Part shown: positions 38,932 to 47,469 of the stretch, one piece after another
Position numbering within the stretch: the first letter of the stretch is position 1
Layout: every line of letters begins with the position of its first letter
The notes under the pieces: model-generated
Seen by the model: the letters and a program-made list of their open reading frames with translations, nothing else
Database searches by the model: none
Told to the model about the DNA's origin: nothing
Position numbers and translations under genes: made by a program
Assembly: GCA_003151395.1 (NCBI GenBank)
Contig: PLXJ01000039.1
Span: 56,969 to 120,968 of the forward strand
DNA: 64,000 nucleotides
DNA from: Actinomycetota bacterium
GTDB lineage: Bacteria; Actinomycetota; Actinomycetes; Nanopelagicales; Nanopelagicaceae
Direction of reading: 5' to 3'

Positions 38932-40290
38932 TTACTCAACCGAGTGAAATTCGAATTCTTCATTGTGAAAACGGTCGTGAGGAATTCCAACATCACGCGC
39001 CGCTTTTCTAACGGTTTCTACCAGTCCAGTAGGGCCACAGATGTAAACATCAGACTCACTAAAGGCCGGAACAAACTTCTTAATGTAGCGAGCATCCATT
39101 GGATGCTGCTTTCGGTTGCCCACCAAATAATGAACTCGAGCCCCCCGCCAATCAGCGATTGCATCTAACTCTTTACGAAATACAAGTTCCTTCTCACTGC
39201 CTACGCGATAGAGAACGTCAATTTCTTTAGTAGCATCAAACTCTTCAAGGAGCGCTCGCAGTGGTGTTATACCAACCCCGCCGCCGACCAAAACGATGTG
39301 ACCCCGTGCCGCCTTAGAGGCGACGAAGGTTCCATAAGGTCCTTCGAAGAAGACTCGAGTTCCGGGTTTGATGTTTAAGACGGCACCCGATGCATCGCCC
39401 AAATCCTTAATTGTTACCCGCATAAAATGTTCGGTTGGGGCTGCAGATAAGGAGTAGGGGTGGGAGATCCACCATTGGCCGGAGGTAATAAATCGCCAAC
39501 TAAAAAATTGACCACCTTGTGCATGTAGGCGGTCGAGGTGACGCCCCCGCATCACAACTGAAACCACGCCAGGTCCCTCAACCACGACTTGGTCTACTCG
39601 CAAATTGTGACGCAGTGAGCGCGCAACCGGTATTACAAACCGCCAAAGCAGGATTACTGCTGCTGAAGCGATATACAAACCTTCCCAGTAAATTTTGTTT
39701 AAAGGGTGTCCGGCAAACATCGGGCCGGTTAATACTTGGTGCATAAAGCCCAAAGCGATAGCTAAGTACGTGTATAAGTGAATTGTCCACCAAGTCTCGT
39801 AACTCATCTTTGCTCGAGCCTTTTTATAGGATGACACACCAGCAGCCATCATCAAACCAAAACCGATATCGGCGGGGATCATCCACGGATACTTAAGCGT
39901 CATACGCCAAAGTTCTGAAAGGGTAGAGATCCGATCTCCACCGGCGTAGCCGAGTCCGACTAGAAGTACATGCAATAAAATTAGATACAAGGACCAGGGA
40001 CCTAATTTTCGGTGCCATTTAACTAACTTGTCGTGACCGACGGATTTTTCAATCCACGGAATACGCGCAACGAAAACTAACCCGACAAGAGCGAAATAGG
40101 AGCCCGCTAACGCGACCAATCGTGAAATAGATGTTATTGACGGATAAACCCCGACCCAATCTCCAGAAGTCATGCTGTCTAGTTCAAGTGCTAGCGTCAG
40201 TCCTAGACCGACTCCGAGCGCAATTGAGGCCCAGTCCGCATTAATACGATGCCCGACGGCTAGATCACGCTTACTCCGCTTAACTGCCAT
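38932..40290 (-). CDS. NOX/ferric-reductase-like transmembrane di-heme flavoenzyme (FRD TM domain plus FAD- and NAD(P)H-binding domains)
   Basis: TM His pairs H-x13-H (HRKLGPWSLYLILLH) and H-x12-H (HLYTYLAIALGFMH), FAD motif HPYSL, NAD(P)H motif GGGVGITP, and a C-terminal CGP block. Confidence 0.85.
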   Translation of the reverse strand: MAVKRSKRDLAVGHRINADWASIALGVGLGLTLALELDSMTSGDWVGVYPSITSISRLVALAGSYFALVGLVFVARIPWIEKSVGHDKLVKWHRKLGPWSLYLILLHVLLVGLGYAGGDRISTLSELWRMTLKYPWMIPADIGFGLMMAAGVSSYKKARAKMSYETWWTIHLYTYLAIALGFMHQVLTGPMFAGHPLNKIYWEGLYIASAAVILLWRFVIPVARSLRHNLRVDQVVVEGPGVVSVVMRGRHLDRLHAQGGQFFSWRFITSGQWWISHPYSLSAAPTEHFMRVTIKDLGDASGAVLNIKPGTRVFFEGPYGTFVASKAARGHIVLVGGGVGITPLRALLEEFDATKEIDVLYRVGSEKELVFRKELDAIADWRGARVHYLVGNRKQHPMDARYIKKFVPAFSESDVYICGPTGLVETVRKAARDVGIPHDRFHNEEFEFHSVE

Positions 40291-40361
40291 GCCCCAATGT
40301 AACCCGAAAGTTATGAGGGATTCCTGTGAGATTTCAGAGATTTAGGTTAATTGTTTAAGCG

Positions 40362-40409
40362 CTTGAAAAGCCAGAAACCCGGCTCTCCTAGTGGAGAACC
40401 GGGTTTCTG
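40362..40409 (-). terminator. Intrinsic terminator of surface-protein paralog 1
   Basis: 17-bp stem (one mismatch) CAGAAACCCGGCTCTCC / GGAGAACCGGGTTTCTG with a 4-nt loop, followed on the minus strand by GCUUUUC. Lies 34 nt after the stop. Confidence 0.75.
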
Positions 40410-40442
40410 TTAGTCAGTCAGACTGACTTAAAGAAGAGGCTG

Positions 40443-42245
40443 TTATGCCTTTACCTTCTTGATGATCCGAACTAGGAGTGCTGAAATTGCAGCAACCTTT
40501 GCAAGGACTGTTGTAACTTGCTGTGACAATGCTGTTACAGCTGCAAGAGCAGCATCAGCCTTGTCGCCTGCATCTTGAGCAGCCTGTGTTGCAGCATCAG
40601 CTGAATCAGCAGCTGCGTTAGCAGCGTCTGTTGCAGCGTTAGCAGCATCTGTTGCCTCGTTAGCAGCATCTACAGCAGCGTTAGCTGCGGTATCAGATGA
40701 ACCGAGAACAGTGAAGTCTGCTTCGTTAGTTGCAGTTGCAGTTGCGCTTGAGAGGAATCCAGCAATAACTGTTCCGCCAGCGATTACTACGTTAGCGGTA
40801 GCAAGTGGAGCGTAAACAGTTGAAGTGTTAACTCCACCAGCGAAGGTTGTTGAAACTAGACCTGGGAGTGCTCCTTGAAGTCCAACGTTTGAAGTTGGAG
40901 CTGCTGAGAAGAATCCAGTGTAAGTTCCATCTGCAATTGGATTTCCCTTTGCAGAGGCAGCTGTCAATGTGTAAACAACCTTGGTGCCTGGGTCATATGT
41001 AGCAGCATCGGTTGATGCAACTACTGATGCTGCAACAGCTGGAACTACCCAAACAGTTGCTGTAGCAGTAACGAGACCTGTAGCAGTATCAGAGAAGGTA
41101 ATTACTGTAGAACCTTCTGAGACTGGGAGAATGTTTACATATGAGTAACCATTTGTTGCGTCGTAGGTAACTGCACCAACGGTTGCAACAGCAGTGGTTC
41201 CAGATGTAACAGTGATACCAGCTGCGCTTGGGATTGTGTTTCCATTTGAATCCGTTGCCTTGACTGATACTGGTGCTCCACCGGTAGCAAAGACAGAACC
41301 GTTAATACCTTCGGTAGCTGTTGAAGCGAAACCAGCAACAGGTGCGACTGGCACATTTGTGTGCACAGTAGCTACAAGCTTTGCAACTGTGGTGCTGTAG
41401 AAGATAACGCTGAATGTTCCAAGAACAACACCAGCAGTTGAGTCAGAGACTGTAACTGTTGAAGTTCCAGCAGTTCCATCGCCGAGCAGAAGTACAGTGG
41501 CAGTTGAGCCAACACCCTGTGCATTGCTTACAGAACGTCCACCTGCTGCAGCATTTGCGTTGGCGTAGGTAGAACCGACCTTTAGAATTCCAGGACCGCT
41601 AACGGACGCTGAAATTGTATCGGTGGTGATTGCAGCTGGAGTTGAGGCGTTATTGTTCACGAGAACATATGCGCCGCCAGCGAGCAAACCATTGGTGCTT
41701 ACTGAAGTGAGTCCAGTATCTTCAGTTGCAACTGTTACCTTTTGTACGCCTGCGATATCTGCTGCAGTGTTTGAGGCAACGATCGAGTTTGCAACAGACA
41801 AGACTGGAGCAGCGCCCCATGTGACTGTCAAAGTGATAGCGGCATTGTTGCTACCTGTAAGAGTAACAACCTGTGTACCAGCAGTTGCTGAGTAAACAGA
41901 CACTGTCATGGATTCTGTTCCAGCGAAGTTAGCGGTACCAATGGCACCAGTACCAGCTGACCAGATCTCAGAAGCACCAGCAGCAGACAAACTTGTAGTT
42001 GCTGGAGCAGATGGGTAGTTAACAGATCCACCAGTTGAAGAAATTGTGTAGTACTTGTCAGCAGAACCCGCAACGATTATTTCCGCCGTGTAGGTACCTG
42101 TGATAGCGGCAGCGGTCGAACTTGCTCCGCTACCAGCGAGTGTTGGTGTTGCGGCAGCATTTGCTGATACGGCAGAAATTCCGCCGATCGCCAACGCAGC
42201 AGCTGCAACAAGCGCGACGCGCTTAAAAGCTGTCTTTGTAGACAT
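40443..42245 (-). CDS. Secreted Ala/Thr/Ser/Gly/Val-rich protein with Ig-like (Big_1/Big_2-like) segments and a C-terminal heptad coiled-coil: paralog 1
   Basis: Start set at ATG 42245 with SD AAAGGAAA (the track ORF adds 61 aa with no coding character). Signal peptide MSTKTAFKRVALVAAAALAIGGISAVSANA. No Cys. Big_2-like ITVTSGTTAVATVG...STVITFSD...ATATVWV and Big_1-like ASTDAATYDPGTKVVYTLTAASAKGNPIADG. Ends in DAANxAT heptads and LLVRIIKKVKA. Confidence 0.75.
   Translation of the reverse strand: MSTKTAFKRVALVAAAALAIGGISAVSANAAATPTLAGSGASSTAAAITGTYTAEIIVAGSADKYYTISSTGGSVNYPSAPATTSLSAAGASEIWSAGTGAIGTANFAGTESMTVSVYSATAGTQVVTLTGSNNAAITLTVTWGAAPVLSVANSIVASNTAADIAGVQKVTVATEDTGLTSVSTNGLLAGGAYVLVNNNASTPAAITTDTISASVSGPGILKVGSTYANANAAAGGRSVSNAQGVGSTATVLLLGDGTAGTSTVTVSDSTAGVVLGTFSVIFYSTTVAKLVATVHTNVPVAPVAGFASTATEGINGSVFATGGAPVSVKATDSNGNTIPSAAGITVTSGTTAVATVGAVTYDATNGYSYVNILPVSEGSTVITFSDTATGLVTATATVWVVPAVAASVVASTDAATYDPGTKVVYTLTAASAKGNPIADGTYTGFFSAAPTSNVGLQGALPGLVSTTFAGGVNTSTVYAPLATANVVIAGGTVIAGFLSSATATATNEADFTVLGSSDTAANAAVDAANEATDAANAATDAANAAADSADAATQAAQDAGDKADAALAAVTALSQQVTTVLAKVAAISALLVRIIKKVKA
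40594..40698 (-). repeat. About five tandem 21-bp units encoding Ala-rich heptads in paralog 1
   Basis: GCGTTAGCAGCGTCTGTTGCA / GCGTTAGCAGCATCTGTTGCC / TCGTTAGCAGCATCTACAGCA and flanking degenerate units. Together they encode DAANEAT-DAANAAT-DAANAAA-DSADAAT. Confidence 0.8.
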
Positions 42246-42344
42246 TATTTTCCTTTCAGAAAAAGTCGATTGGGAGCATTTCTCCCGCTCGGCTTGGCCA
42301 ACAAATAACAATTCGTTATAAGCGAACTGACCTTTGTTAACCAC

Positions 42345-42373
42345 GAGATGAGACGCACGTGCTGACTCATCTC
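42345..42373 (-). promoter_or_regulatory. Conserved leader stem-loop or palindrome 100-128 nt upstream of paralog 1
   Basis: GAGATGAG-(13 nt containing GCACGTGC)-CTCATCTC. The same element sits at the identical distance upstream of paralog 2, with compensatory substitutions. Confidence 0.55.
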
Positions 42374-42424
42374 TATTCCCTCGCAATATCCGGACTGCGC
42401 GGGAAACTTGTTGTGCGAAGGAAA

Positions 42425-43834
42425 TCATTTTGTGACTCCGTTCGCGGCGACCTTGATCGCTTCGGCAAGAATTTGAGTCTTACCAGGATTGAGCACTAGT
42501 CGGACAGAAATAGAAGTCGGTATCGAAGTAACATCGACACCCTGACTTACAGGTAAAAGTATACCTGCGTCTACTGGGGAAACAGTGACAATTGTGCTGG
42601 AGACGAGATAGTTACCGTCAGGTAACCGTGAGATATCTGTACTGATAGCAGAAGAATTGAGTGCGACCCAACCGCCGTGCATAGAGACAGATGTTGTTGG
42701 TGTGTATGTAGTCCCAGAACCATCAACGTTAATGACCTGATTAATAAGTACATTGACCGCTTTTGGATCGTAAGACATGACAGGCGCAGTCAATGTGATG
42801 CCGTTATCGGTGATCACAGGAGCAGGCTTGCCAATGATAATTGTGCCGGTATCACCAGTCAGATCTGTGACAGTAAAACCGGTAGGGATTCCGCCAGTGT
42901 CGAGTCCACTAAATTGCAGACCGGCAATCTTTGCATCGACAGTTGGAGTCAAGGTATCGAGCTTCGATAGCGTCGAACTTTTGGTTGGGGACGTTGACGG
43001 AGTTGCTGATGCCGAAGCAGAGGCAGAGGCAGATGGAGTTGAAGAAGGTGTTGGTGGCGTGACGACTGTTGTCAAAGCTGTTGGTGAAGTCAGTGGGACG
43101 CTCTTGTGGTTAAAGGAATTGAATCCGATAAATGCGGCAAAAAGAAGAACCAGTGACAAGGCGACCTTGGATGATTTCTTTGCAAGTTCTGCTGCCTTCT
43201 TGTAGGAAGATGACAAGGCGTCTAATGCAGTAGCACCAGTCTGCTCGTCGATAATCCACTCGGAGAGAACGCGGACAAAAGAGGCGCGAGAACGAGCCAC
43301 AACGTGGCGGACGTTTGCGGGAGTTGTTCCAATGGCAGTGGCGATCTCTTCGGTCGTGCGGCCTTCCATTTCCCACATGACAAGCGCGGTGCGCTGATCT
43401 GCAGAGAGACGAGAAAGGGCTTCGCGAATGATCGAGGCATCTTCGGCGGCAGCCAAGGTGGAATCAAAAGGAATATGAGCATCAAAGGCCAACTCATCCA
43501 AGCGCTCTTGGGTGGCGTCGGAGTCAATTGCGACCAGGTTGGGGCGAGAACCGGTGGCGCGAATCTGATTGAGGCAGAGGTTGTTCACGGTGGTACGCAG
43601 GTAAGCAAGCGCCCGATCACGGGTATCTAGTTCTGGGGCAGCCAAAATGAACTTGAGGAAGGCTTCTTGCACGATTTCGACCGCATCAGCCTCGGAACGG
43701 AGAATTCGACGGGCTTGGGAGGTCAAAGAGGAGCGTTGTTCTGAATAGAGCGCGGAGAGGTCGGCAATTGACCAGTCGGATACGGCTTGAAGAGGCGCCG
43801 CTTCCGTGATCTTCGCTAGCTTGCGAAATGCCAT
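42425..43834 (-). CDS. ECF-type sigma-70 factor fused to a TM helix and a roughly 190-aa extracytoplasmic domain
   Basis: Sigma region 2 (EIVQEAFLKFI...YLRTTVNNLCLNQIR) and region 4 (LSADQRTALVMWEMEGRTTEEIATAIGTTPANVRHVVARSR), then TM VALSLVLLFAAFIGFNSF, an S/T/P/A linker (SASASASA) and a beta-rich C-terminal domain. SD GGAG lies 10 nt upstream. Confidence 0.8.
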   Translation of the reverse strand: MAFRKLAKITEAAPLQAVSDWSIADLSALYSEQRSSLTSQARRILRSEADAVEIVQEAFLKFILAAPELDTRDRALAYLRTTVNNLCLNQIRATGSRPNLVAIDSDATQERLDELAFDAHIPFDSTLAAAEDASIIREALSRLSADQRTALVMWEMEGRTTEEIATAIGTTPANVRHVVARSRASFVRVLSEWIIDEQTGATALDALSSSYKKAAELAKKSSKVALSLVLLFAAFIGFNSFNHKSVPLTSPTALTTVVTPPTPSSTPSASASASASATPSTSPTKSSTLSKLDTLTPTVDAKIAGLQFSGLDTGGIPTGFTVTDLTGDTGTIIIGKPAPVITDNGITLTAPVMSYDPKAVNVLINQVINVDGSGTTYTPTTSVSMHGGWVALNSSAISTDISRLPDGNYLVSSTIVTVSPVDAGILLPVSQGVDVTSIPTSISVRLVLNPGKTQILAEAIKVAANGVTK

Positions 43835-43989
43835 TTTGATTACTCCGTTTGGTGGTACCCCCGTAGGTCAGCGTCCTGGCCACGTTAAGAAAAGTACCTT
43901 CTACTAGTAAAGACACGCAAGTAGTCCAAATGTTGTCCTCCGGAGGGCAGGAATTTGAAGATTTTTGGGATATTTCTCGGGTTTTACCT

Positions 43990-44037
43990 CAAAAAAGTCA
44001 GAAACCCGGCTCCCTTTATTGGGAACCGGGTTTCTGA
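43990..44037 (-). terminator. Intrinsic terminator of surface-protein paralog 2
   Basis: Stem TCAGAAACCCGGCTCCC / GGGAACCGGGTTTCTGA with a 6-nt loop, followed on the minus strand by CUUUUUUG. The stem sequence is nearly identical to the terminator at 40372..40409. Confidence 0.8.
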
Positions 44038-44077
44038 GTCAGTCAGGAAGATTGAAGCCCGACTGAATCGGAAAGCG

Positions 44078-45883
44078 TTAAGCCTTCAACTTCTTGATGA
44101 GTCGAGCCACAAGTGCAATAAGGGCGACCTGTTTTGCCAGGACGGCGGTTACACGTGCGTTCAAAACCACCATGGCAGCTACTGCTGCCGCTGCTTGTGC
44201 TCCAGCGGCTTTTGCAGCCGTGGTGGCGGCATCAGCGTTGGAAGCAGCCAAAGTAGCAGCAACTGTTGCTGCCTTAGCAGCGGTTGTTGCTTCATTAGCA
44301 GCGTCAATTGCACCTTGAACAGAACCTGTTGAGCCAGAGACCGCGAAGAGTGCACTGTTGGTAGTTATACCTGCAGCTGCCGGCGCAACGAAAGCAAGTG
44401 AAGAAAGCGTTCCACCTGCGATCACGACATTTGCTGCAGATGCTGGGGAATAAACGACCACGCTAGATACTCCACCAACGAATGTAATTGCACCCGTAGT
44501 AGGAAGTGCTCCTTGGAGTCCGATATTTGAAGTCGGAGCAGTAGAGAACAATCCAGTGTAAGTACCATCGGCCACTTGACGTCCGGCTGCATCAGTTGCA
44601 GTCAAGGTGTACACAACCTTGGTACCAGGAGCATAGGTTGCTGCATCGGTAGAAGCTACAACTTTTGCAACAACTGGTGAAACCACCAAAACGGTTGTTG
44701 TAGCTACAACTTTGCCTGTAGCGGTATCAGAGAAGGTAAGTATTGTTGAACCTTCTGCAACCGGGATGATGTTTACAAATGATGAAGCGTTTGCTGGGTC
44801 ATAAGTAATCGCACCAACATTTGCTACGGAAGTTGTTCCCGAAGTAACTGTAATACCGGTTGAAGCAGGAATTGCATTTCCGTTTACATCTTTAGCGACT
44901 ACAGAGACTGCCGCCATGCCAGCTACAACTACAGTTGAATTGATTCCCTCAGTCGCCTTTGGAACAAATCCTGCAGGCATAGTGAGTGGGACGTTCGTAT
45001 TAGTTGTTGCAACGAGTGAAGCGACGACTGTGCTATGGAAGATAACTGAGAAGGTGCCAAGCACAATTCCAGCAGTTGAGTCAGAAACCGTCACTGTTGA
45101 AGTTCCAGAAGTTCCGTCTCCGAATATCAAAACATAGGCTGTTGAACCAGCAGCTACGTTACTAACAGCACGACCACCAGCTGCAGCTGCTGCTGCGGCA
45201 TAAGTTGCACCGATTTGGAGAATTCCAGGTCCGGTAACGGATGCTGAAATTACGTCGGTCGTAATTGCAACAGGAGTCGAAGCGTTATTGTTCAAAAGAA
45301 CGTATGCGCCGCCACCAAGGGTGTTCACAGTGTAAATCGCAGAAAGACCAGTGTCTTCGGTTGCGACTGTTGTCTTAGGTGTTCCACCAGAGATATCTGC
45401 AGCAGTGTTTGATGCGACCACTGAATTTGCTGCAGAAGCTACTGCTGGAGCGCCCCATGTAATAGTCAAAGTAATTGCAGTTGAACTGCTACCAGCGAGG
45501 GTCACAACTTGAGTTCCAGCAGTTGCTGAGTAGACAGAAACAGTCATGGTCTCTGATCCAGCAAAGTTAGTGGTACCAATTGCACCGGTGCCTGCTGACC
45601 AAATTTCGGCAGCGCCACTGGTAGAAAGTGTGGTTGTTGCTGGGGCAGTTGGATAGTTAACAACGCCACCAGTTGAAGAAATGGTGTAGTACTTATCAGC
45701 GCTGCCTGCAGCGATGACCTCTGTCGTGTAATTTCCAGTGATGAGGCTCGCCGTTGAACTAGTTGCGCTGCCAGCAAGAGTTGGAGCTGTTAAGGCATTG
45801 GCTGAAACGGCAGAAATTCCGCCGATCGCTACTGCAGCGGCCGCAATAAGTGCGACTCGCTTGAATACTGTTTTTGTAGACAT
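44078..45883 (-). CDS. Secreted Ala/Thr/Ser/Gly/Val-rich protein with Ig-like segments and a C-terminal heptad coiled-coil: paralog 2
   Basis: 601 aa, collinear with paralog 1 and highly similar in the N-terminal third. Signal peptide MSTKTVFKRVALIAAAAVAIGGISAVSANA. C-terminus ...LIALVARLIKKLKA. SD AAAGGAAAG. Confidence 0.8.
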   Translation of the reverse strand: MSTKTVFKRVALIAAAAVAIGGISAVSANALTAPTLAGSATSSTASLITGNYTTEVIAAGSADKYYTISSTGGVVNYPTAPATTTLSTSGAAEIWSAGTGAIGTTNFAGSETMTVSVYSATAGTQVVTLAGSSSTAITLTITWGAPAVASAANSVVASNTAADISGGTPKTTVATEDTGLSAIYTVNTLGGGAYVLLNNNASTPVAITTDVISASVTGPGILQIGATYAAAAAAAGGRAVSNVAAGSTAYVLIFGDGTSGTSTVTVSDSTAGIVLGTFSVIFHSTVVASLVATTNTNVPLTMPAGFVPKATEGINSTVVVAGMAAVSVVAKDVNGNAIPASTGITVTSGTTSVANVGAITYDPANASSFVNIIPVAEGSTILTFSDTATGKVVATTTVLVVSPVVAKVVASTDAATYAPGTKVVYTLTATDAAGRQVADGTYTGLFSTAPTSNIGLQGALPTTGAITFVGGVSSVVVYSPASAANVVIAGGTLSSLAFVAPAAAGITTNSALFAVSGSTGSVQGAIDAANEATTAAKAATVAATLAASNADAATTAAKAAGAQAAAAVAAMVVLNARVTAVLAKQVALIALVARLIKKLKA

Positions 45884-45982
45884 TGCTTTCCTTTCAAAGA
45901 GAGTCGATTTGAAGTATTTCTTCCGCTCGACCTAGCCACGTAGAGCAAATTCGCAGAACGCGAGAAGCTTTTTATTGACCGC

Positions 45983-46011
45983 GAAATGAGACGCACGTGC
46001 TGTCTTATTTC
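45983..46011 (-). promoter_or_regulatory. Conserved leader stem-loop or palindrome 100-128 nt upstream of paralog 2
   Basis: GAAATGAGA-(11 nt containing GCACGTGC)-TCTTATTTC. Pairing is kept by one G-to-A / C-to-T double change and one G-U wobble relative to copy 1. Confidence 0.55.
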
Positions 46012-46128
46012 TATGTCTTCACCGTAGCCGAGAGATATTGTGAATAGGTTGTGAGAACAGTGTTTTTAGGGGTCTGGATGAAGATTGCAAATTAATTGCA
46101 AGGTAAATGAAAGTGGATCGCCTTGTAA

Positions 46129-47469
46129 TTAAAGAGTTGCGAAAGCCTGATCTAAAACACTTAGTGCATCTGTTAGTAACTCATCACTAATAACTAATGG
46201 CGGCAGGAATCGAATGACATTGCTGTAGGTACCAGCAGTCAAAATGAAAACACCGTTTGCGGTGCAGTACTTAATGACCTTACTCATTGCAGCGCTATTT
46301 GGTTCGATTGATCCAGGAACAATAAGTTCTATCGCCTGCATTGCTCCTCGGCCGCGGACCTCACCAATAACTGGATACTTGACGGCAAGTTCCCGAAGTC
46401 CTGCACCTAACAATTGGCCAATGTGCTTTGCGCGTTCGATTAATCCATCTTCTTCGATGGTCGCTATTGCGCCAAGTGCTGCTGCACAGGCAACAGGGTT
46501 ACCACCGAATGTTCCTCCGAGGCCCGATACATGAACGGAATCCATGATTTCTGCGCGACCAGTAATTCCGGCTAGTGGTAAACCACCAGCAATTCCTTTA
46601 GCAGTGATCAAAATATCTGGAACAACGTTCTCCTCTTCAATAGCGAACATGTGACCCGTACGAGCGAAACCAGATTGAACTTCATCTGCCATAAAAACGA
46701 TGCCATGCTGCCTAGAATATTCGGCGAGCGCTGGTAAGAATCCCTTGGGCGGAACGATGAATCCACCTTCACCTTGGATCGGTTCAATCAAAATTGCTGC
46801 AACGTTATGTGCACCTATCTCTTTATCAATTTTGTGGGTAATCATTTCGATGGCATCTTGGGTAATTGTTGCCTTCGGTCCAATCCAGCGATACTCGTAT
46901 GGCATTGGCACGCGATAAATCTCGGGAGCAAATGGCCCAAATCCCTCTTTATAAGGCATGTTCTTGGCATTCAATGCCATGGTTAGATTTGTGCGGCCGT
47001 GATACGCATGTTCGAAAACGACGATTGCTTGACGCTTTGTGTAATGGCGCGCAATCTTTACCGCGTTTTCTACTGCCTCGGCCCCGGAGTTAGCAAGCAT
47101 CGACTTCTTCTTGTGAGTACCTGGTGTTAGGCGATTGAGCGCTTCACACACCTCGATGTAATTAATATATGGGGCAACGGTGAAACATGTGTGGGTGAAA
47201 GCTTGCACTTGATCGATCACATTAGCGACAACGCGTGAAGCGCTATTACCGACATTTGTGACACCGATACCAGATCCCATATCAATGATCTGATTGCCAT
47301 CAAGGTCTAGCAAGATGGCGTCACTTGCACGTTCGATTACAACGGGGAATGTAAGACCTAGTCCACCAGCAACAGCTTCAGCGCGACGCTGGATTGCAGC
47401 GTTAGATTTTGGTCCTGGGATTGAAGTGACCACGCGACGAACTTGATCGAGGTTTGTAAGTGTTGTCAT
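46129..47469 (-). CDS. gabT: 4-aminobutyrate--2-oxoglutarate transaminase (class III aminotransferase)
   Basis: IPGPKS N-terminus, FMADEVQSGFARTG block and 446 aa from the internal ATG at 47469. The track ORF adds 35 residues that look non-coding. Confidence 0.85.
   Translation of the reverse strand: MTTLTNLDQVRRVVTSIPGPKSNAAIQRRAEAVAGGLGLTFPVVIERASDAILLDLDGNQIIDMGSGIGVTNVGNSASRVVANVIDQVQAFTHTCFTVAPYINYIEVCEALNRLTPGTHKKKSMLANSGAEAVENAVKIARHYTKRQAIVVFEHAYHGRTNLTMALNAKNMPYKEGFGPFAPEIYRVPMPYEYRWIGPKATITQDAIEMITHKIDKEIGAHNVAAILIEPIQGEGGFIVPPKGFLPALAEYSRQHGIVFMADEVQSGFARTGHMFAIEEENVVPDILITAKGIAGGLPLAGITGRAEIMDSVHVSGLGGTFGGNPVACAAALGAIATIEEDGLIERAKHIGQLLGAGLRELAVKYPVIGEVRGRGAMQAIELIVPGSIEPNSAAMSKVIKYCTANGVFILTAGTYSNVIRFLPPLVISDELLTDALSVLDQAFATL

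What the first reader, a model, noticed from the sequence alone, without database searches (positions are those of the whole stretch)
42425..43834. ECF sigma factor covalently fused to a TM helix and an extracytoplasmic beta-rich domain
Sigma regions 2 and 4 (about residues 45-200) are followed by a 35-aa linker. Next come one hydrophobic helix (VALSLVLLFAAFIGFNSF), an S/T/P/A-rich spacer and a roughly 190-aa domain predicted to lie outside the cell. No separate anti-sigma gene is adjacent. Established knowledge: ECF groups with C-terminal extensions, some including TM helices, have been catalogued bioinformatically, but their mechanism is largely untested. Candidate mechanisms are proteolytic release or transcription while membrane-tethered. 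Its position between two surface-protein genes suggests it senses or regulates them; that is inference.
Basis: partly seen in the sequence, partly recalled or inferred. Interest (0 to 1): 0.6.

Follow-up and report, generated by a model that had tools for sequence, protein, structure and literature searches.

The report
Membrane-anchored sigma factor paired with coat gene
A gene switch (an ECF sigma factor) in the most abundant freshwater bacteria is built as one protein with a membrane anchor and an outside domain of unknown fold, always sits just upstream of a gene for a secreted surface protein, and probably switches on its own operon when it is cut loose from the membrane.

Summary
ORF 42425..43834 (-) encodes 469 aa:
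- ECF sigma regions 2 and 4;
- a 33-aa cytoplasmic linker;
- one N-in/C-out hydrophobic helix (224-241);
- a 59-aa spacer that is 73% S/T/P/A;
- a ~170-aa all-beta ectodomain that models confidently and matches no Pfam family or solved or viral structure.

It is not a frameshift artefact. The continuous ORF is present in 68 species-level acI (Nanopelagicaceae) genomes and in thousands of metagenome proteins.

New findings:
- The linker and helix are as conserved as the sigma domains. The ectodomain is variable, and a ~315-aa sister subfamily carries a short helical tail in its place.
- There is no zinc-finger or other anti-sigma domain.
- A strongly conserved ECF-type promoter (ACAACAT-N13-GTGTCTT) lies upstream of every copy and nowhere else in 715 kb of loci. 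Its -35 and -10 types track the sigma-4 and sigma-2 types of three paralog classes, which argues for autoregulation.
- A secreted surface-protein gene follows in 49 of 49 loci, behind a structured RNA leader. Some genomes carry tandem cassettes.

The sigma-type promoter is absent from both paralog upstream regions.

Best model: a one-component sigma released by intramembrane proteolysis. That step is inferred, not shown. I class it as a new variant of a known kind.

The parts
43903..43941 (-). ECF-type promoter of the cassette: -35 GACAAC(AT) at 43937..43932, 13-nt gap after ACAT, -10 GTGTCTT at 43916..43910.
   Evidence: The motif model scores it 47.7 bits. The next best of 127,924 positions in the window scores -3.7. 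The same motif lies upstream of 69 of 75 sigma orthologs. All 70 hits in 715 kb of related loci lie upstream of this gene family.
43835..43902 (-). 5' untranslated region of the sigma gene, with a conserved small hairpin whose loop region is (A/G)GACG(C/T).
   Evidence: Seen in the alignment of upstream regions. The transcription start is inferred, not mapped.
42425..43834 (-). The 469-aa membrane-anchored ECF sigma factor (stop codon included).
43550..43750 (-). Sigma region 2 (residues 29-95).
   Evidence: Pfam PF04542, E 7.8e-12. Mean pairwise identity in the family is 72%.
43283..43432 (-). Sigma region 4 (residues 135-184).
   Evidence: Pfam PF08281, E 1e-9. Mean pairwise identity is 79%. 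Foldseek matches ECF sigmas AlgU, RpoE, SigH, SigL, SigK and SigW.
43166..43258 (-). Conserved cytoplasmic juxtamembrane segment (residues 193-223): a turn around invariant G200, then an amphipathic helix TALDALSxxYKKAAELAxKSSK.
   Evidence: Invariant G200, T202, A203, L204, L207, S208, K212, A218, K220 and S221 in 33 sequences. Mean identity 76%, as high as the sigma domains. The segment is retained in the ~315-aa sister subfamily.
43112..43165 (-). Single transmembrane helix (residues 224-241) with invariant F235, G237 and F238 and near-invariant N239.
   Evidence: Kyte-Doolittle mean 1.88 and the positive-inside rule. Mean identity 74%.
42935..43111 (-). S/T/P/A-rich spacer (residues 242-300), variable in length and sequence.
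   Evidence: 73% S/T/P/A. Mean identity 32%. pLDDT below 50.
42428..42934 (-). Extracytoplasmic all-beta domain (residues 301-469) of unknown fold, with the conserved motif F-x-G-L-D-x-x-G-I-P-T-G-F-T-V-T-D.
   Evidence: pLDDT 88, pTM 0.85. No PDB fold match (best E 0.19, TM 0.24) and no viral fold match. No PDB sequence match and no Pfam match. Only 98 clusters among 1.84 billion representatives, nearly all with the match at the C terminus of proteins of at most 505 aa; the 972-aa and 596-aa outliers are unrelated repeat proteins.
42246..42407 (-). Structured RNA leader between the sigma gene and the downstream surface-protein gene. It has stem-loop 1 (loop GUCCGGAUA), stem-loop 2 (apex GCACGUGC), a variable hairpin, and stem-loop 4 (AAGCCGA...UCGACU) just before the ribosome-binding site GAAAGGAA.
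   Evidence: 19 of 31 predicted pairs show compensatory changes in 25 sequences. No Rfam match.
40443..42245 (-). Downstream surface-protein gene (600 aa from ATG 42245). It has a Sec-type signal peptide MSTKTAFKRVALVAAAALAIGGISAVSANA, an alanine-rich heptad stalk and a basic C-terminal tail ...IKKVKA.
   Evidence: An equivalent gene follows the sigma gene in 49/49 loci. No Pfam or PDB homolog.
40372..40409 (-). Intrinsic terminator that closes the cassette.
   Evidence: Sequence read: stem CAGAAACCCGG...CCGGGTTTCTG followed by GCTTTTC.
44078..45883 (-). Upstream paralog of the surface-protein gene (601 aa, 69% identical). It is a lineage-specific extra copy with its own leader copy (45884..46045) and its own terminator (44037..43998).
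   Evidence: The sigma-type promoter is absent upstream.

Best explanation
This is a one-component, membrane-spanning ECF sigma factor of acI Actinobacteria (Nanopelagicaceae). It forms a cassette with a surface-protein gene: ECF-type promoter, sigma gene, structured RNA leader, secreted surface-protein gene, terminator.

Shown here:
- An S/T/P/A-rich stalk carries a beta domain of unknown fold to the outside.

Inferred, with my estimate of likelihood:
- The sigma factor recognises the promoter in front of its own gene, giving positive autoregulation (about 0.75).
- The surface-protein gene is co-transcribed from that promoter (about 0.7). The leader then yields a much more abundant downstream mRNA, either by processing or from a second promoter.
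- In the resting state the tethered sigma is inactive. It may be held by the linker helix acting as a minimal built-in anti-sigma element, by distance from free RNA polymerase, or by both. A signal at the envelope, sensed by the ectodomain, leads to shedding of the ectodomain. A site-2 (M50) protease then cuts within the helix at the helix-breaking G-F-N stretch, and an active sigma of about 25 kDa is released (about 0.5).

The signal is unknown. The state of the co-encoded surface protein or of the cell wall is the leading guess.
For: Architecture and bona fide ECF character:
- Conservation of the fusion: 68 complete ORFs of 448-505 aa in other species-level genomes, including complete chromosomes, and thousands of metagenome proteins.
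- No stand-alone version of the C-terminal part exists. All shorter hits are contig-end fragments or chimeras.

The tether looks functional:
- Linker identity is 76% and helix identity 74%, against 72% for sigma-2, 79% for sigma-4, 48% for the ectodomain and 32% for the spacer.
- Invariant residues fall on one helical face. G237 is invariant and N239 near-invariant inside the membrane helix.
- The ~315-aa sister subfamily keeps the sigma domains, linker and helix but swaps the ectodomain for a short helical tail.

Autoregulation:
- The promoter motif is found only upstream of these genes: 70 of 70 hits in 715 kb of loci, and a single hit in the 64-kb window at 47.7 bits against -3.7 for the runner-up.
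- Promoter elements co-vary with the sigma recognition regions in three classes:
  - Type A: sigma-2 YLRTxVNNLxLN and sigma-4 TPANVRH, with -35 ACAACAT and -10 GTGTCTT.
  - Type B: sigma-2 YLHRTIENLCID and sigma-4 KESAVRH, with -35 C(G/T)ACAAA and -10 CGTAG(A/T)A.
  - Hybrid type C: A-like sigma-2 and B-like sigma-4, with -35 GCTACAT and -10 GTGTCTT.

Operon:
- A surface-protein gene follows in 49/49 loci on the same strand, with a gap of -26 to +167 nt.
- Terminators lie only after the surface-protein genes.
- In locus L081 one surface-protein gene sits directly behind a type-B promoter plus a sigma 5'UTR remnant with no sigma ORF.
- Metatranscriptome contigs cross the sigma stop codon into the leader at 42384-42528, 42384-42460 and 42400-42460.

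Proteolytic release, by analogy:
- The N-in/C-out orientation and helix-breaking residues are what site-2 proteases require (established knowledge).
- The fused sigma/anti-sigma IutY is released by Prc and RseP. ECF48, 52 and 53 are predicted to work the same way (PMC8999054; SCO4117 in PMC5826349).
Against: - No protease was identified. The genome search tool was shut, and the window holds no M50-type protease.
- No processed form has been observed.
- The linker is too short for a classical four-helix anti-sigma domain, and no zinc-finger motif exists. There is a single Cys, at residue 87. How the tethered form is kept inactive is therefore conjecture.
- After a site-2 cut, the usual Clp-type degradation of the stub would have to stop before sigma-4.
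- The promoter could be read by a different sigma factor.
- Leader and surface-gene RNA is roughly 10-100 times deeper than sigma RNA in lake metatranscriptomes. This needs a second promoter or processing, so the surface gene is not simply under this sigma's control. Those depths come from assembled contigs of mixed relatives and are only rough.
- The ligand is unknown.
Confidence: 0.5

Rival explanations
1. The sigma factor works while still anchored. It recruits RNA polymerase to the promoter of its own cassette at the membrane, as ToxR or CadC do as activators. Co-translational insertion of the sigma protein and of the signal-peptide-bearing surface protein keeps the locus at the membrane, so each cassette's sigma acts mainly in cis. 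The ectodomain modulates activity through conformation or oligomerisation, without cleavage.
For: - There is no recognisable anti-sigma domain, and only a 33-aa linker.
- The strict cis pairing of each sigma paralog with its own promoter and surface gene, including tandem arrays sigma-surf-sigma-surf, is easy to understand if action is local.
- acI cells are very small (<0.1 um3; PMC12817590), so DNA is never far from the membrane.
- The C terminus of sigma-4 is solvent-exposed in holoenzyme structures (established knowledge; ECF41/42 extensions).
Against: - To my knowledge, no membrane-bound sigma factor has been shown to function.
- Invariant helix-breaking residues in the membrane helix and an invariant juxtamembrane face suggest recognition by a protease or another partner rather than a passive anchor.
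- The experimentally characterised fused sigma/anti-sigma, IutY, is released by proteolysis (PMC8999054).
Confidence: 0.2
2. The C-terminal part is not a sensor. The protein is processed constitutively, or simply turned over, and the membrane anchor only sets the level or location of a sigma whose job is steady expression of the surface-protein operon.
For: - acI bacteria have minimal regulation, with 2-4 sigma factors in total (PMC12817590).
- The ectodomain can be replaced by a short tail in the sister subfamily.
- The surface-protein mRNA is abundant in all four lake metatranscriptomes examined.
Against: - The ectodomain is a well-folded domain under purifying selection. It has invariant G310, G315, P317, G330, Q366, W389, G407, G432 and P439 and a conserved GLDxxGIPTGFTVTD motif.
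- Keeping 250 extra residues in a streamlined genome argues for a function.
Confidence: 0.12
3. The sigma-like domain is not a transcription factor. It would be a degenerate sigma fold used for protein-protein interaction, as in PhyR, or the ORF would be a frameshift fusion of two genes.
For: There is a weak sub-threshold Pfam hit to PhyR_sigma-like (21.9 bits against a cut-off of 27).
Against: - The core-binding and DNA-recognition regions are conserved: EIVQEAFLKF, YLRTTVNNLCLNQIR and the sigma-4.2 helix-turn-helix.
- The sigma70-ECF model scores above its cut-off.
- A promoter co-varies with the recognition regions.
- The single ORF is conserved in 68 other genomes and thousands of metagenome sequences.
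Confidence: 0.03

Closest known systems
ECF52 (SCO4117 of Streptomyces coelicolor), with the related actinobacterial groups ECF48 and ECF53
   Same: - Actinobacterial ECF sigma with a long C-terminal extension that crosses the membrane.
- A low-complexity (Pro- or S/T/P-rich) stalk and an outside domain.
- No separate anti-sigma gene.
- Predicted release by proteolysis and positive autoregulation (PMC5826349, PMC8999054).
   Different: - Those groups carry a zinc-finger (ZAS-type, PF13490) anti-sigma domain between sigma-4 and the membrane. ECF52 also carries a carbohydrate-binding module.
- Here there is no zinc finger. The protein has one Cys in total, a 33-aa linker and an ectodomain of unknown fold.
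- The invariant pairing with a surface-protein gene and the cassette duplication are, as far as I could find, not described for those groups.
IutY of Pseudomonas putida (ECF243, FecI-type sigma fused to a FecR-type anti-sigma)
   Same: A single polypeptide with an N-terminal ECF sigma, one membrane helix and an outside sensor part. It is the only fused sigma for which release by site-1 (Prc) and site-2 (RseP) proteolysis has been shown (PMC8999054).
   Different: IutY is Gram-negative cell-surface signalling that uses a TonB-dependent transducer and a FecR domain. None of these is present here.
Canonical ECF sigma with a single-pass anti-sigma factor (RpoE-RseA, SigW-RsiW, SigK-RskA), and the minimal class II anti-sigma domains (CnrY, NepR)
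   Same: - The overall logic: a cytoplasmic sigma held at the membrane, an N-in/C-out helix, an outside sensor and regulated intramembrane proteolysis.
- Short anti-sigma elements (CnrY or NepR type) show that a short, roughly two-helix element can be enough to block an ECF sigma (recalled knowledge, not tested here).
   Different: Here sigma and anchor are covalently joined. No class I anti-sigma domain fits in 33 residues. Whether the linker helix contacts sigma-2 or sigma-4 was not testable.
Pro-sigma-K of Bacillus subtilis
   Same: A sigma factor that is itself the membrane-associated substrate of a site-2-type protease (SpoIVFB). This is from established knowledge.
   Different: Pro-sigma-K is a group 3 sigma with a short N-terminal pro-sequence and no ectodomain.

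Membership tests
ECF (group 4) sigma-70 family | Only regions sigma-2 and sigma-4 are present, and the protein matches ECF profile models above threshold. | tested here: met
   PF04542 and PF08281 score above their gathering cut-offs. TIGR02937 scores 66.3 bits against 42.9. The best fold matches are ECF sigmas.
ECF (group 4) sigma-70 family | An autoregulated promoter with an AAC-containing -35 element and a G/C-G-T-containing -10 element. | tested here: inconclusive
   A conserved ACAACAT-N13-GTGTCTT motif occurs only upstream of these genes and co-varies with sigma-2 and sigma-4 types. Recognition by this sigma was not tested biochemically.
A specific ECF group of the 2021 classification (ECF Hub) | A score above the group-specific HMM threshold. 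| not testable with these tools
   The group HMMs are not on hand, and the paper's supplementary text is not held. No NCBIfam equivalog or subfamily model reaches its cut-off. The best, NF058625, scores 73 bits against 130.
ECF52 / ECF53 / ECF48 (fused ZAS-type anti-sigma extension) | A zinc-finger (HxxxCxxC, PF13490) anti-sigma domain between sigma-4 and the membrane helix. | tested here: not met
   No Pfam hit in residues 186-469 even at E<=5. The only Cys is C87, and the linker is 33 aa.
ECF52 / ECF53 / ECF48 (fused ZAS-type anti-sigma extension) | One or two transmembrane helices followed by a long low-complexity extension outside the cell. | tested here: met
   One helix at 224-241 and an S/T/P/A-rich spacer at 242-300.
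ECF52 | A C-terminal carbohydrate-binding module. | tested here: not met
   No Pfam, PDB-sequence, PDB-fold or viral-fold match for the confident ectodomain model.
IutY-type FecI-FecR hybrids (ECF243) | A FecR domain, and a TonB-dependent transducer partner. | tested here: not met
   No FecR hit. The host is a Gram-positive-type actinobacterium.
Substrates of site-2 (M50) intramembrane proteases | A single N-in/C-out helix with helix-destabilising residues. | tested here: met
   Positive-inside charge of +4 against +1. G237 is invariant and N239 near-invariant in the helix. Topology is predicted only from hydropathy and charge.
Substrates of site-2 (M50) intramembrane proteases | Actual cleavage, and presence of the protease in the same genome. 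| not testable with these tools
   The genome search was shut. No M50-like ORF lies in the 64-kb window.

The most novel reading that the evidence does not exclude
The alternative sigma factors of acI bacteria are mostly, or all, membrane-anchored ECFs, each wired in cis to one surface-coat gene and to its own private promoter. The tethered sigma would act locally at the membrane without release. Alternatively, the set of cassettes would work as a switchboard that decides which coat protein the cell displays, for example under phage or grazer pressure. This would be a new mode of sigma-factor action and a new coat-variation system in the most abundant freshwater bacteria.
Probability: 0.2. Interest if true: 0.85.

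Novelty: new variant of a known kind. Interest (0 to 1): 0.6.

Why it matters
acI (Nanopelagicales) are the most abundant freshwater bacterioplankton. [quoted passage not shown] The data here show that at least one, and in some genomes three or more, are membrane-spanning ECFs, each locked to a surface-protein gene.

- **A tractable model.** This is a compact case of an ECF regulation mode that has been catalogued but hardly tested. It has a minimal 33-aa tether instead of an anti-sigma domain.
- **Testable promoters.** There are three natural sigma/promoter specificity classes that can be tested in vitro.
- **Orphan domain.** The ectodomain has an unknown fold and an unknown ligand.
- **Ecology.** The system links regulation to the cell surface, which is where phage and grazer pressure act on these organisms.

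Tried and rejected
- **Frameshift or assembly fusion:** rejected. The single ORF is conserved in 68 other genomes and thousands of metagenome proteins.
- **Stand-alone anti-sigma homologs of the C-terminal part:** none found. All shorter hits among 1.84 billion representatives start in mid-sigma-4 or mid-helix (contig-end fragments) or are chimeras. The 972-aa hit is an unrelated repeat protein.
- **Function of the ectodomain by fold or sequence:** nothing found.
  - PDB Foldseek best E 0.19.
  - Viral structure library best E 0.02 with TM 0.23.
  - PDB profile search gave no hit.
  - Pfam gave nothing at E<=5.
- **Sigma-type promoter upstream of the two surface-protein paralogs:** rejected.
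  - The motif model scores are -29 and -30 bits.
  - The CACAAC-N17-CGG(A/C)TA similarity noted by another first-stage note is real in the window's own clade. It is not conserved in the Planktophila loci, where the CGGATA falls in the loop of a covarying RNA stem.
- **The long 661-aa ORF (42428 start, overlapping the sigma stop as ATGA):** rejected as the true start of the downstream gene.
  - The 'conserved peptide' it would add is the translation of RNA stem-loops.
  - The extension is closed by stop codons in the upstream paralog and in the Planktophila loci.
- **Rfam match for the leader:** none.
- **Searching the window's own genome for other sigma factors and for a site-2 protease:** not possible, because the tool was shut. 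A motif scan of the window found no M50-like or ZAS-like ORF.
- **Mapping transcription starts from public RNA runs:** only assembled contigs of mixed relatives are available. Ends at 42407 and 42413 are suggestive at most.
- **ECF group assignment from the classification paper:** the supplementary text is not held.
Full report
**1. The observation**

The minus-strand ORF 42425..43834 encodes 469 residues.

- Pfam places sigma-70 region 2 at residues 29-95 (E 7.8e-12) and region 4 (r4_2) at 135-184 (E 1e-9). The NCBIfam ECF superfamily model TIGR02937 is passed (66.3 bits, cut-off 42.9). No specific equivalog or subfamily model reaches its cut-off.
- There is one strongly hydrophobic stretch, residues 224-241 (Kyte-Doolittle mean 1.88 over 19 residues). 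Five lysines lie in the 15 residues before it (net charge +4) against +1 after it. The sigma domain is therefore predicted cytoplasmic and the C-terminal 228 residues outside.
- Residues 242-300 are 73% Ser/Thr/Pro/Ala.
- Residues 301-469 model as a compact all-beta domain. pLDDT is 85-93 in the full-length model. Modelled alone, pLDDT is 88 and pTM 0.85 with 11 strands.
- The full-length model's best structural matches are ECF sigma factors: AlgU, RpoE, SigH, SigL, SigK and SigW. Sequence matches to solved ECFs are weak; the best is SigJ at 2e-8. The sigma core is therefore a divergent ECF.

**2. Not an artefact; where it comes from**

A scan of one genome per prokaryote species returned 86 relatives. 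The record titles are almost all acI Actinobacteria: Nanopelagicaceae, Ca. Planktophila, SCGC AAA044 single cells and IMCC isolates. A few MAG titles are obviously mislabelled.

I re-derived the ORFs. 68 are complete, 448-505 aa long, 48-86% identical to the window protein over its full length, and include copies on complete chromosomes. The metagenome protein search listed 120 full-length proteins at 82-91% identity, out of thousands of hits. A frameshift-fused sigma/anti-sigma pair is excluded.

**3. Anatomy from conservation**

I aligned 33 diverse full-length members. Mean pairwise identities are:

| Region | Identity |
|---|---|
| Sigma-2 | 72% |
| Sigma-4 | 79% |
| Cytoplasmic juxtamembrane segment (193-223) | 76% |
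| Membrane helix | 74% |
| Spacer | 32% |
| Ectodomain | 48% |

- Invariant residues in the tether are G200, T202, A203, L204, L207, S208, K212, A218, K220 and S221. In the helix they are A225, L228, F235, G237 and F238, with N239 nearly invariant.
- The linker helix (modelled 203-220) is amphipathic. Its hydrophobic face (L204, L207, Y211, A214/A215, A218) is invariant or nearly so.
- A plain anchor would not be conserved like this. I read the tether as an interaction surface, and G237/N239 as the helix-breaking residues that intramembrane proteases need. That second point is inference from established knowledge of site-2 protease substrates.
- There is no zinc-finger or other anti-sigma domain. 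Pfam finds nothing in residues 186-469 even at E<=5, the protein has a single cysteine (C87, in sigma-2), and 33 residues cannot hold a classical four-helix anti-sigma domain.

**4. The ectodomain is an orphan and is exchangeable**

- A full HMMER search of 1.84 billion cluster representatives with residues 290-469 found only 98 clusters. Nearly all have the match at the C terminus of proteins of at most 505 aa. Two longer repeat proteins gave only short repeated matches.
- The shorter ones I inspected begin in mid-sigma-4 or mid-helix, or are chimeras. They are fragments, so no stand-alone form exists.
- The confident model has no significant match in the PDB (best E 0.19, TM 0.24) or among predicted viral structures. 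A profile search of PDB sequences found nothing.
- Searching with the sigma domain alone uncovered a large sister subfamily of 313-330 aa, some on contigs up to 955 kb. It has the same sigma domains, the same linker and helix (...RGLTALDMLSTSYKKAAEIAQKSSKVALSLLLVVTAFLGFNSLTGNEG...), and only about 75 residues outside, ending in a conserved helix (EEFNDQMDISLAQLESVAVMAQTMAM).

The constant unit is sigma-linker-helix. The outside part is a swappable module, as expected for a sensor or partner-binding part.

**5. A private, co-varying promoter**

Upstream regions of the sigma genes were anchored on the conserved Trp codon. They share gGCACAACATTTG-N11-GTGTCTTaac, that is ACAACAT-N13-GTGTCTT. An exact CAAC-N17-GTCT match is present in 69 of 75 regions.

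- The window copy is at 43941..43903, about 70 nt before the ATG. It scores 47.7 bits with the motif model, while the second-best of 127,924 window positions scores -3.7.
- In 715 kb of related loci, all 70 hits of at least 14 bits lie upstream of a sigma gene of this family.
- The motif has the general form of ECF promoters: an AAC-containing -35 and a GT(C)-containing -10 (established knowledge).

Paralog classes differ in a modular way:

| Type | Examples | Sigma-2.3/2.4 | Sigma-4.2 | -35 | -10 |
|---|---|---|---|---|---|
| A | Window, main Planktophila copy | YLRTxVNNLxLNxIR | TPANVRH | ACAACAT | GTGTCTT |
| B | Second copies in L045 and L050; L064, L077, L081 copy 2 | YLHRTIENLCIDLFR | KESAVRH | C(G/T)ACAAA or GCAACAAG | CGTAG(A/T)A |
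| C | Short-ectodomain copies in L081, L083, L084 | A-like | B-like | B-like GCTACAT | A-type GTGTCTT |

The -10 follows the sigma-2 type and the -35 follows the sigma-4 type, at the same spacing. This is the pattern expected if each sigma reads the promoter of its own gene. It is comparative evidence, not proof.

**6. The surface-protein link**

In all 49 loci with enough downstream sequence, the next gene on the same strand, with a gap of -26 to +167 nt, encodes a 567-962-aa protein. It has the signal-peptide start MSTKTTFKRIALVA... and, in all 39 complete cases, a basic C-terminal tail such as ...KIQKKVKA. These proteins have no Pfam or PDB relatives. They diverge much faster than the sigma factor: 27-46% identity where the sigma is 50-83%.

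- In the window the downstream gene is 42245..40443. The upstream paralog (45883..44078, 69% identical) is an extra copy seen only in close relatives.
- Strong terminators follow each surface-protein gene: 44037..43998 and 40409..40372. None separates the sigma gene from the surface gene.
- Other genomes hold tandem arrays. L081 has sigma(315)-surf(608)-sigma(323)-surf(643)-surf(705)-sigma(330). L084 has sigma(319)-542aa-sigma(347)-568aa, next to Wzy-type and sugar-nucleotide genes.
- In L081 the surface gene without its own sigma lies directly behind a type-B promoter and a remnant of a sigma 5'UTR. This shows a surface gene driven from the promoter type that normally precedes the sigma gene.
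- The paralog upstream regions in the window do not contain the sigma-type promoter (-29 and -30 bits).

**7. The intergenic leader**

The 120-190 nt between the sigma gene and the surface gene is a conserved structured RNA.

- Stem-loop 1 has the loop GUCCGGAUA.
- Stem-loop 2 has the apex GCACGUGC.
- One or two variable hairpins follow.
- Stem-loop 4 (AAGCCGA-stem-UCGACU) abuts the ribosome-binding site.
- In 25 sequences, 19 of 31 predicted pairs show compensatory double changes.
- Rfam has no match.

This explains the apparent 661-aa ORF starting at 42428. The 'conserved' extra peptide is the translation of these stems.

In four lake metatranscriptomes (assembled contigs of mixed relatives, so only rough):

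- The leader and the 5' end of the surface gene reach summed depths of about 650-1150 in 197-nt bins and several thousand at stem-loop 2. The sigma ORF is at about 1-300.
- A few contigs cross the sigma stop codon into the leader, at 42384-42528, 42384-42460 and 42400-42460.
- Several near-identical abundant contigs end at 42407 or 42413, the foot of stem-loop 1.

I read this as co-transcription plus either processing to a stabilised downstream mRNA or a second promoter. It cannot be decided here.

**8. Mechanism**

- Shown: the domain order, the predicted topology, the conservation pattern, the private promoter, the gene pairing and the RNA structure.
- Inferred: autoregulation (about 0.75), co-transcription of the surface gene (about 0.7), and activation by shedding of the ectodomain followed by site-2 cleavage in the helix and release of a ~25-kDa sigma (about 0.5).

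The last step rests on analogy. IutY is the only fused sigma/anti-sigma studied in detail, and it is released by Prc and RseP. ECF48, 52 and 53 are predicted to be released in the same way (PMC8999054, PMC5826349). It also rests on the orientation and the helix-breaking residues.

The main rival (about 0.2) is activity while tethered. The missing anti-sigma domain, the strict cis arrangement and the tiny cell size make this conceivable.

The 59-aa stalk would be about 20 nm long if extended, enough to carry the beta domain through the wall. That makes the co-encoded surface protein or the wall itself the obvious candidate signal. This is a guess.

**9. Comparison with known systems and novelty**

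ECFs with membrane-spanning C-terminal extensions are a catalogued kind. 19 ECF groups have C-terminal extensions (PMC7826278). ECF48, 52 and 53 of Actinobacteria have a zinc finger plus one or two helices (PMC8999054).

This family fails the defining zinc-finger test and the carbohydrate-module test, and it has no FecR domain. It is therefore not a member of ECF52-type or IutY-type fusions, although it probably works like them. I could not run the ECF Hub group models, so it may already sit unnoticed in a numbered group.

As far as I could find, the following are new:
- the minimal invariant tether;
- the orphan, exchangeable ectodomain;
- the three-way sigma/promoter specificity code;
- the obligate pairing with a surface-protein gene behind a structured leader;
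- the tandem cassettes;
- the setting in organisms that keep only 2-4 sigma factors (PMC12817590).

I rate it a new variant of a known kind, with interest 0.6.

**10. Limits**

- The genome-wide search tools were shut. The number of sigma factors and the presence of a site-2 protease in this genome were therefore not checked.
- Topology rests on hydropathy and charge only.
- Structure models gave no contact information for the linker.
- Transcript ends come from contigs, not reads.

Noticed in passing
window 42246-42407 (-) and 45884-46045 (-); e.g. L039:7370-7532, L045:7361-7523: A conserved, structured 5' leader of about 120-190 nt precedes every surface-protein gene of this family. It has four elements: stem-loop 1 (loop GUCCGGAUA), stem-loop 2 (apex GCACGUGC), a variable hairpin, and stem-loop 4 (AAGCCGA...UCGACU) next to the ribosome-binding site. 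19 of 31 pairs show compensatory changes, and Rfam has no match. It may be an mRNA-stabilising or regulatory RNA motif of acI bacteria.
   Followed up: partly
L081:8001-16948 and L084:8001-13768: Tandem arrays of cassettes occur in other acI genomes: sigma(315)-surf(608)-sigma(323)-surf(643)-surf(705)-sigma(330). Each cassette has its own promoter variant and terminator. In L084 the array lies next to Wzy_C, UDP-glucose dehydrogenase and epimerase genes (a cell-surface glycan island).
   Followed up: partly
P0329, P0319, P0320, P0260, P0259, P0325 (metagenome proteins); L079:5-952: A sister subfamily of 313-330 aa has the same sigma domains, linker and membrane helix. It has only about 75 residues outside, ending in a conserved amphipathic helix (EEFNDQMDISLAQLESVAVMAQTMAM). 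The surface proteins paired with it in L079 and L081 end in a matching conserved helix (...SLIASINKQIAAL...). This may be a helix-helix sensing pair.
   Followed up: partly
window 42246-42428 (-): The downstream surface-protein gene has an in-frame upstream extension to an ATG that overlaps the sigma stop codon (ATGA), giving a 661-aa ORF. Gene callers may choose this start. The extension is the translation of the RNA leader. It is closed by stop codons in the paralog and in the Planktophila loci, so the true start is ATG 42245.
   Followed up: yes
L081:6288-7801, L083:450-1124, L084:7103-7789: One or two small GerE/LuxR-type regulator genes (about 225 aa) lie just upstream of the first sigma cassette in three independent loci of the short-ectodomain type. 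No equivalent was seen next to the window's cassette.
   Followed up: no
window 40497-40693 and 42073-42466: Summed contig depth is very high in four lake metatranscriptomes over the 3' coiled-coil part, the leader and the 5' end of the surface-protein gene (hundreds to thousands, against about 1-150 over the sigma ORF). These genes may be among the most highly expressed acI genes. The depths mix related organisms.
   Followed up: partly
L020, L037, L048, L036, L079 (record titles): Several public MAG records that carry this acI-specific gene are titled Bifidobacterium breve, Streptomyces griseus, Chthoniobacteraceae or Oligoflexia. These are probably mislabelled or mis-binned.
   Followed up: no
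window 45990-46128 (-): The upstream paralog lacks a sigma gene in front. It may have its own housekeeping-type promoter (TTGCAA, 16 nt, TAAAAA), seen by eye about 40 nt before its leader. The promoter scan of 40200-46300 did not list it, because it requires T at the last position of the second hexamer.
   Followed up: no
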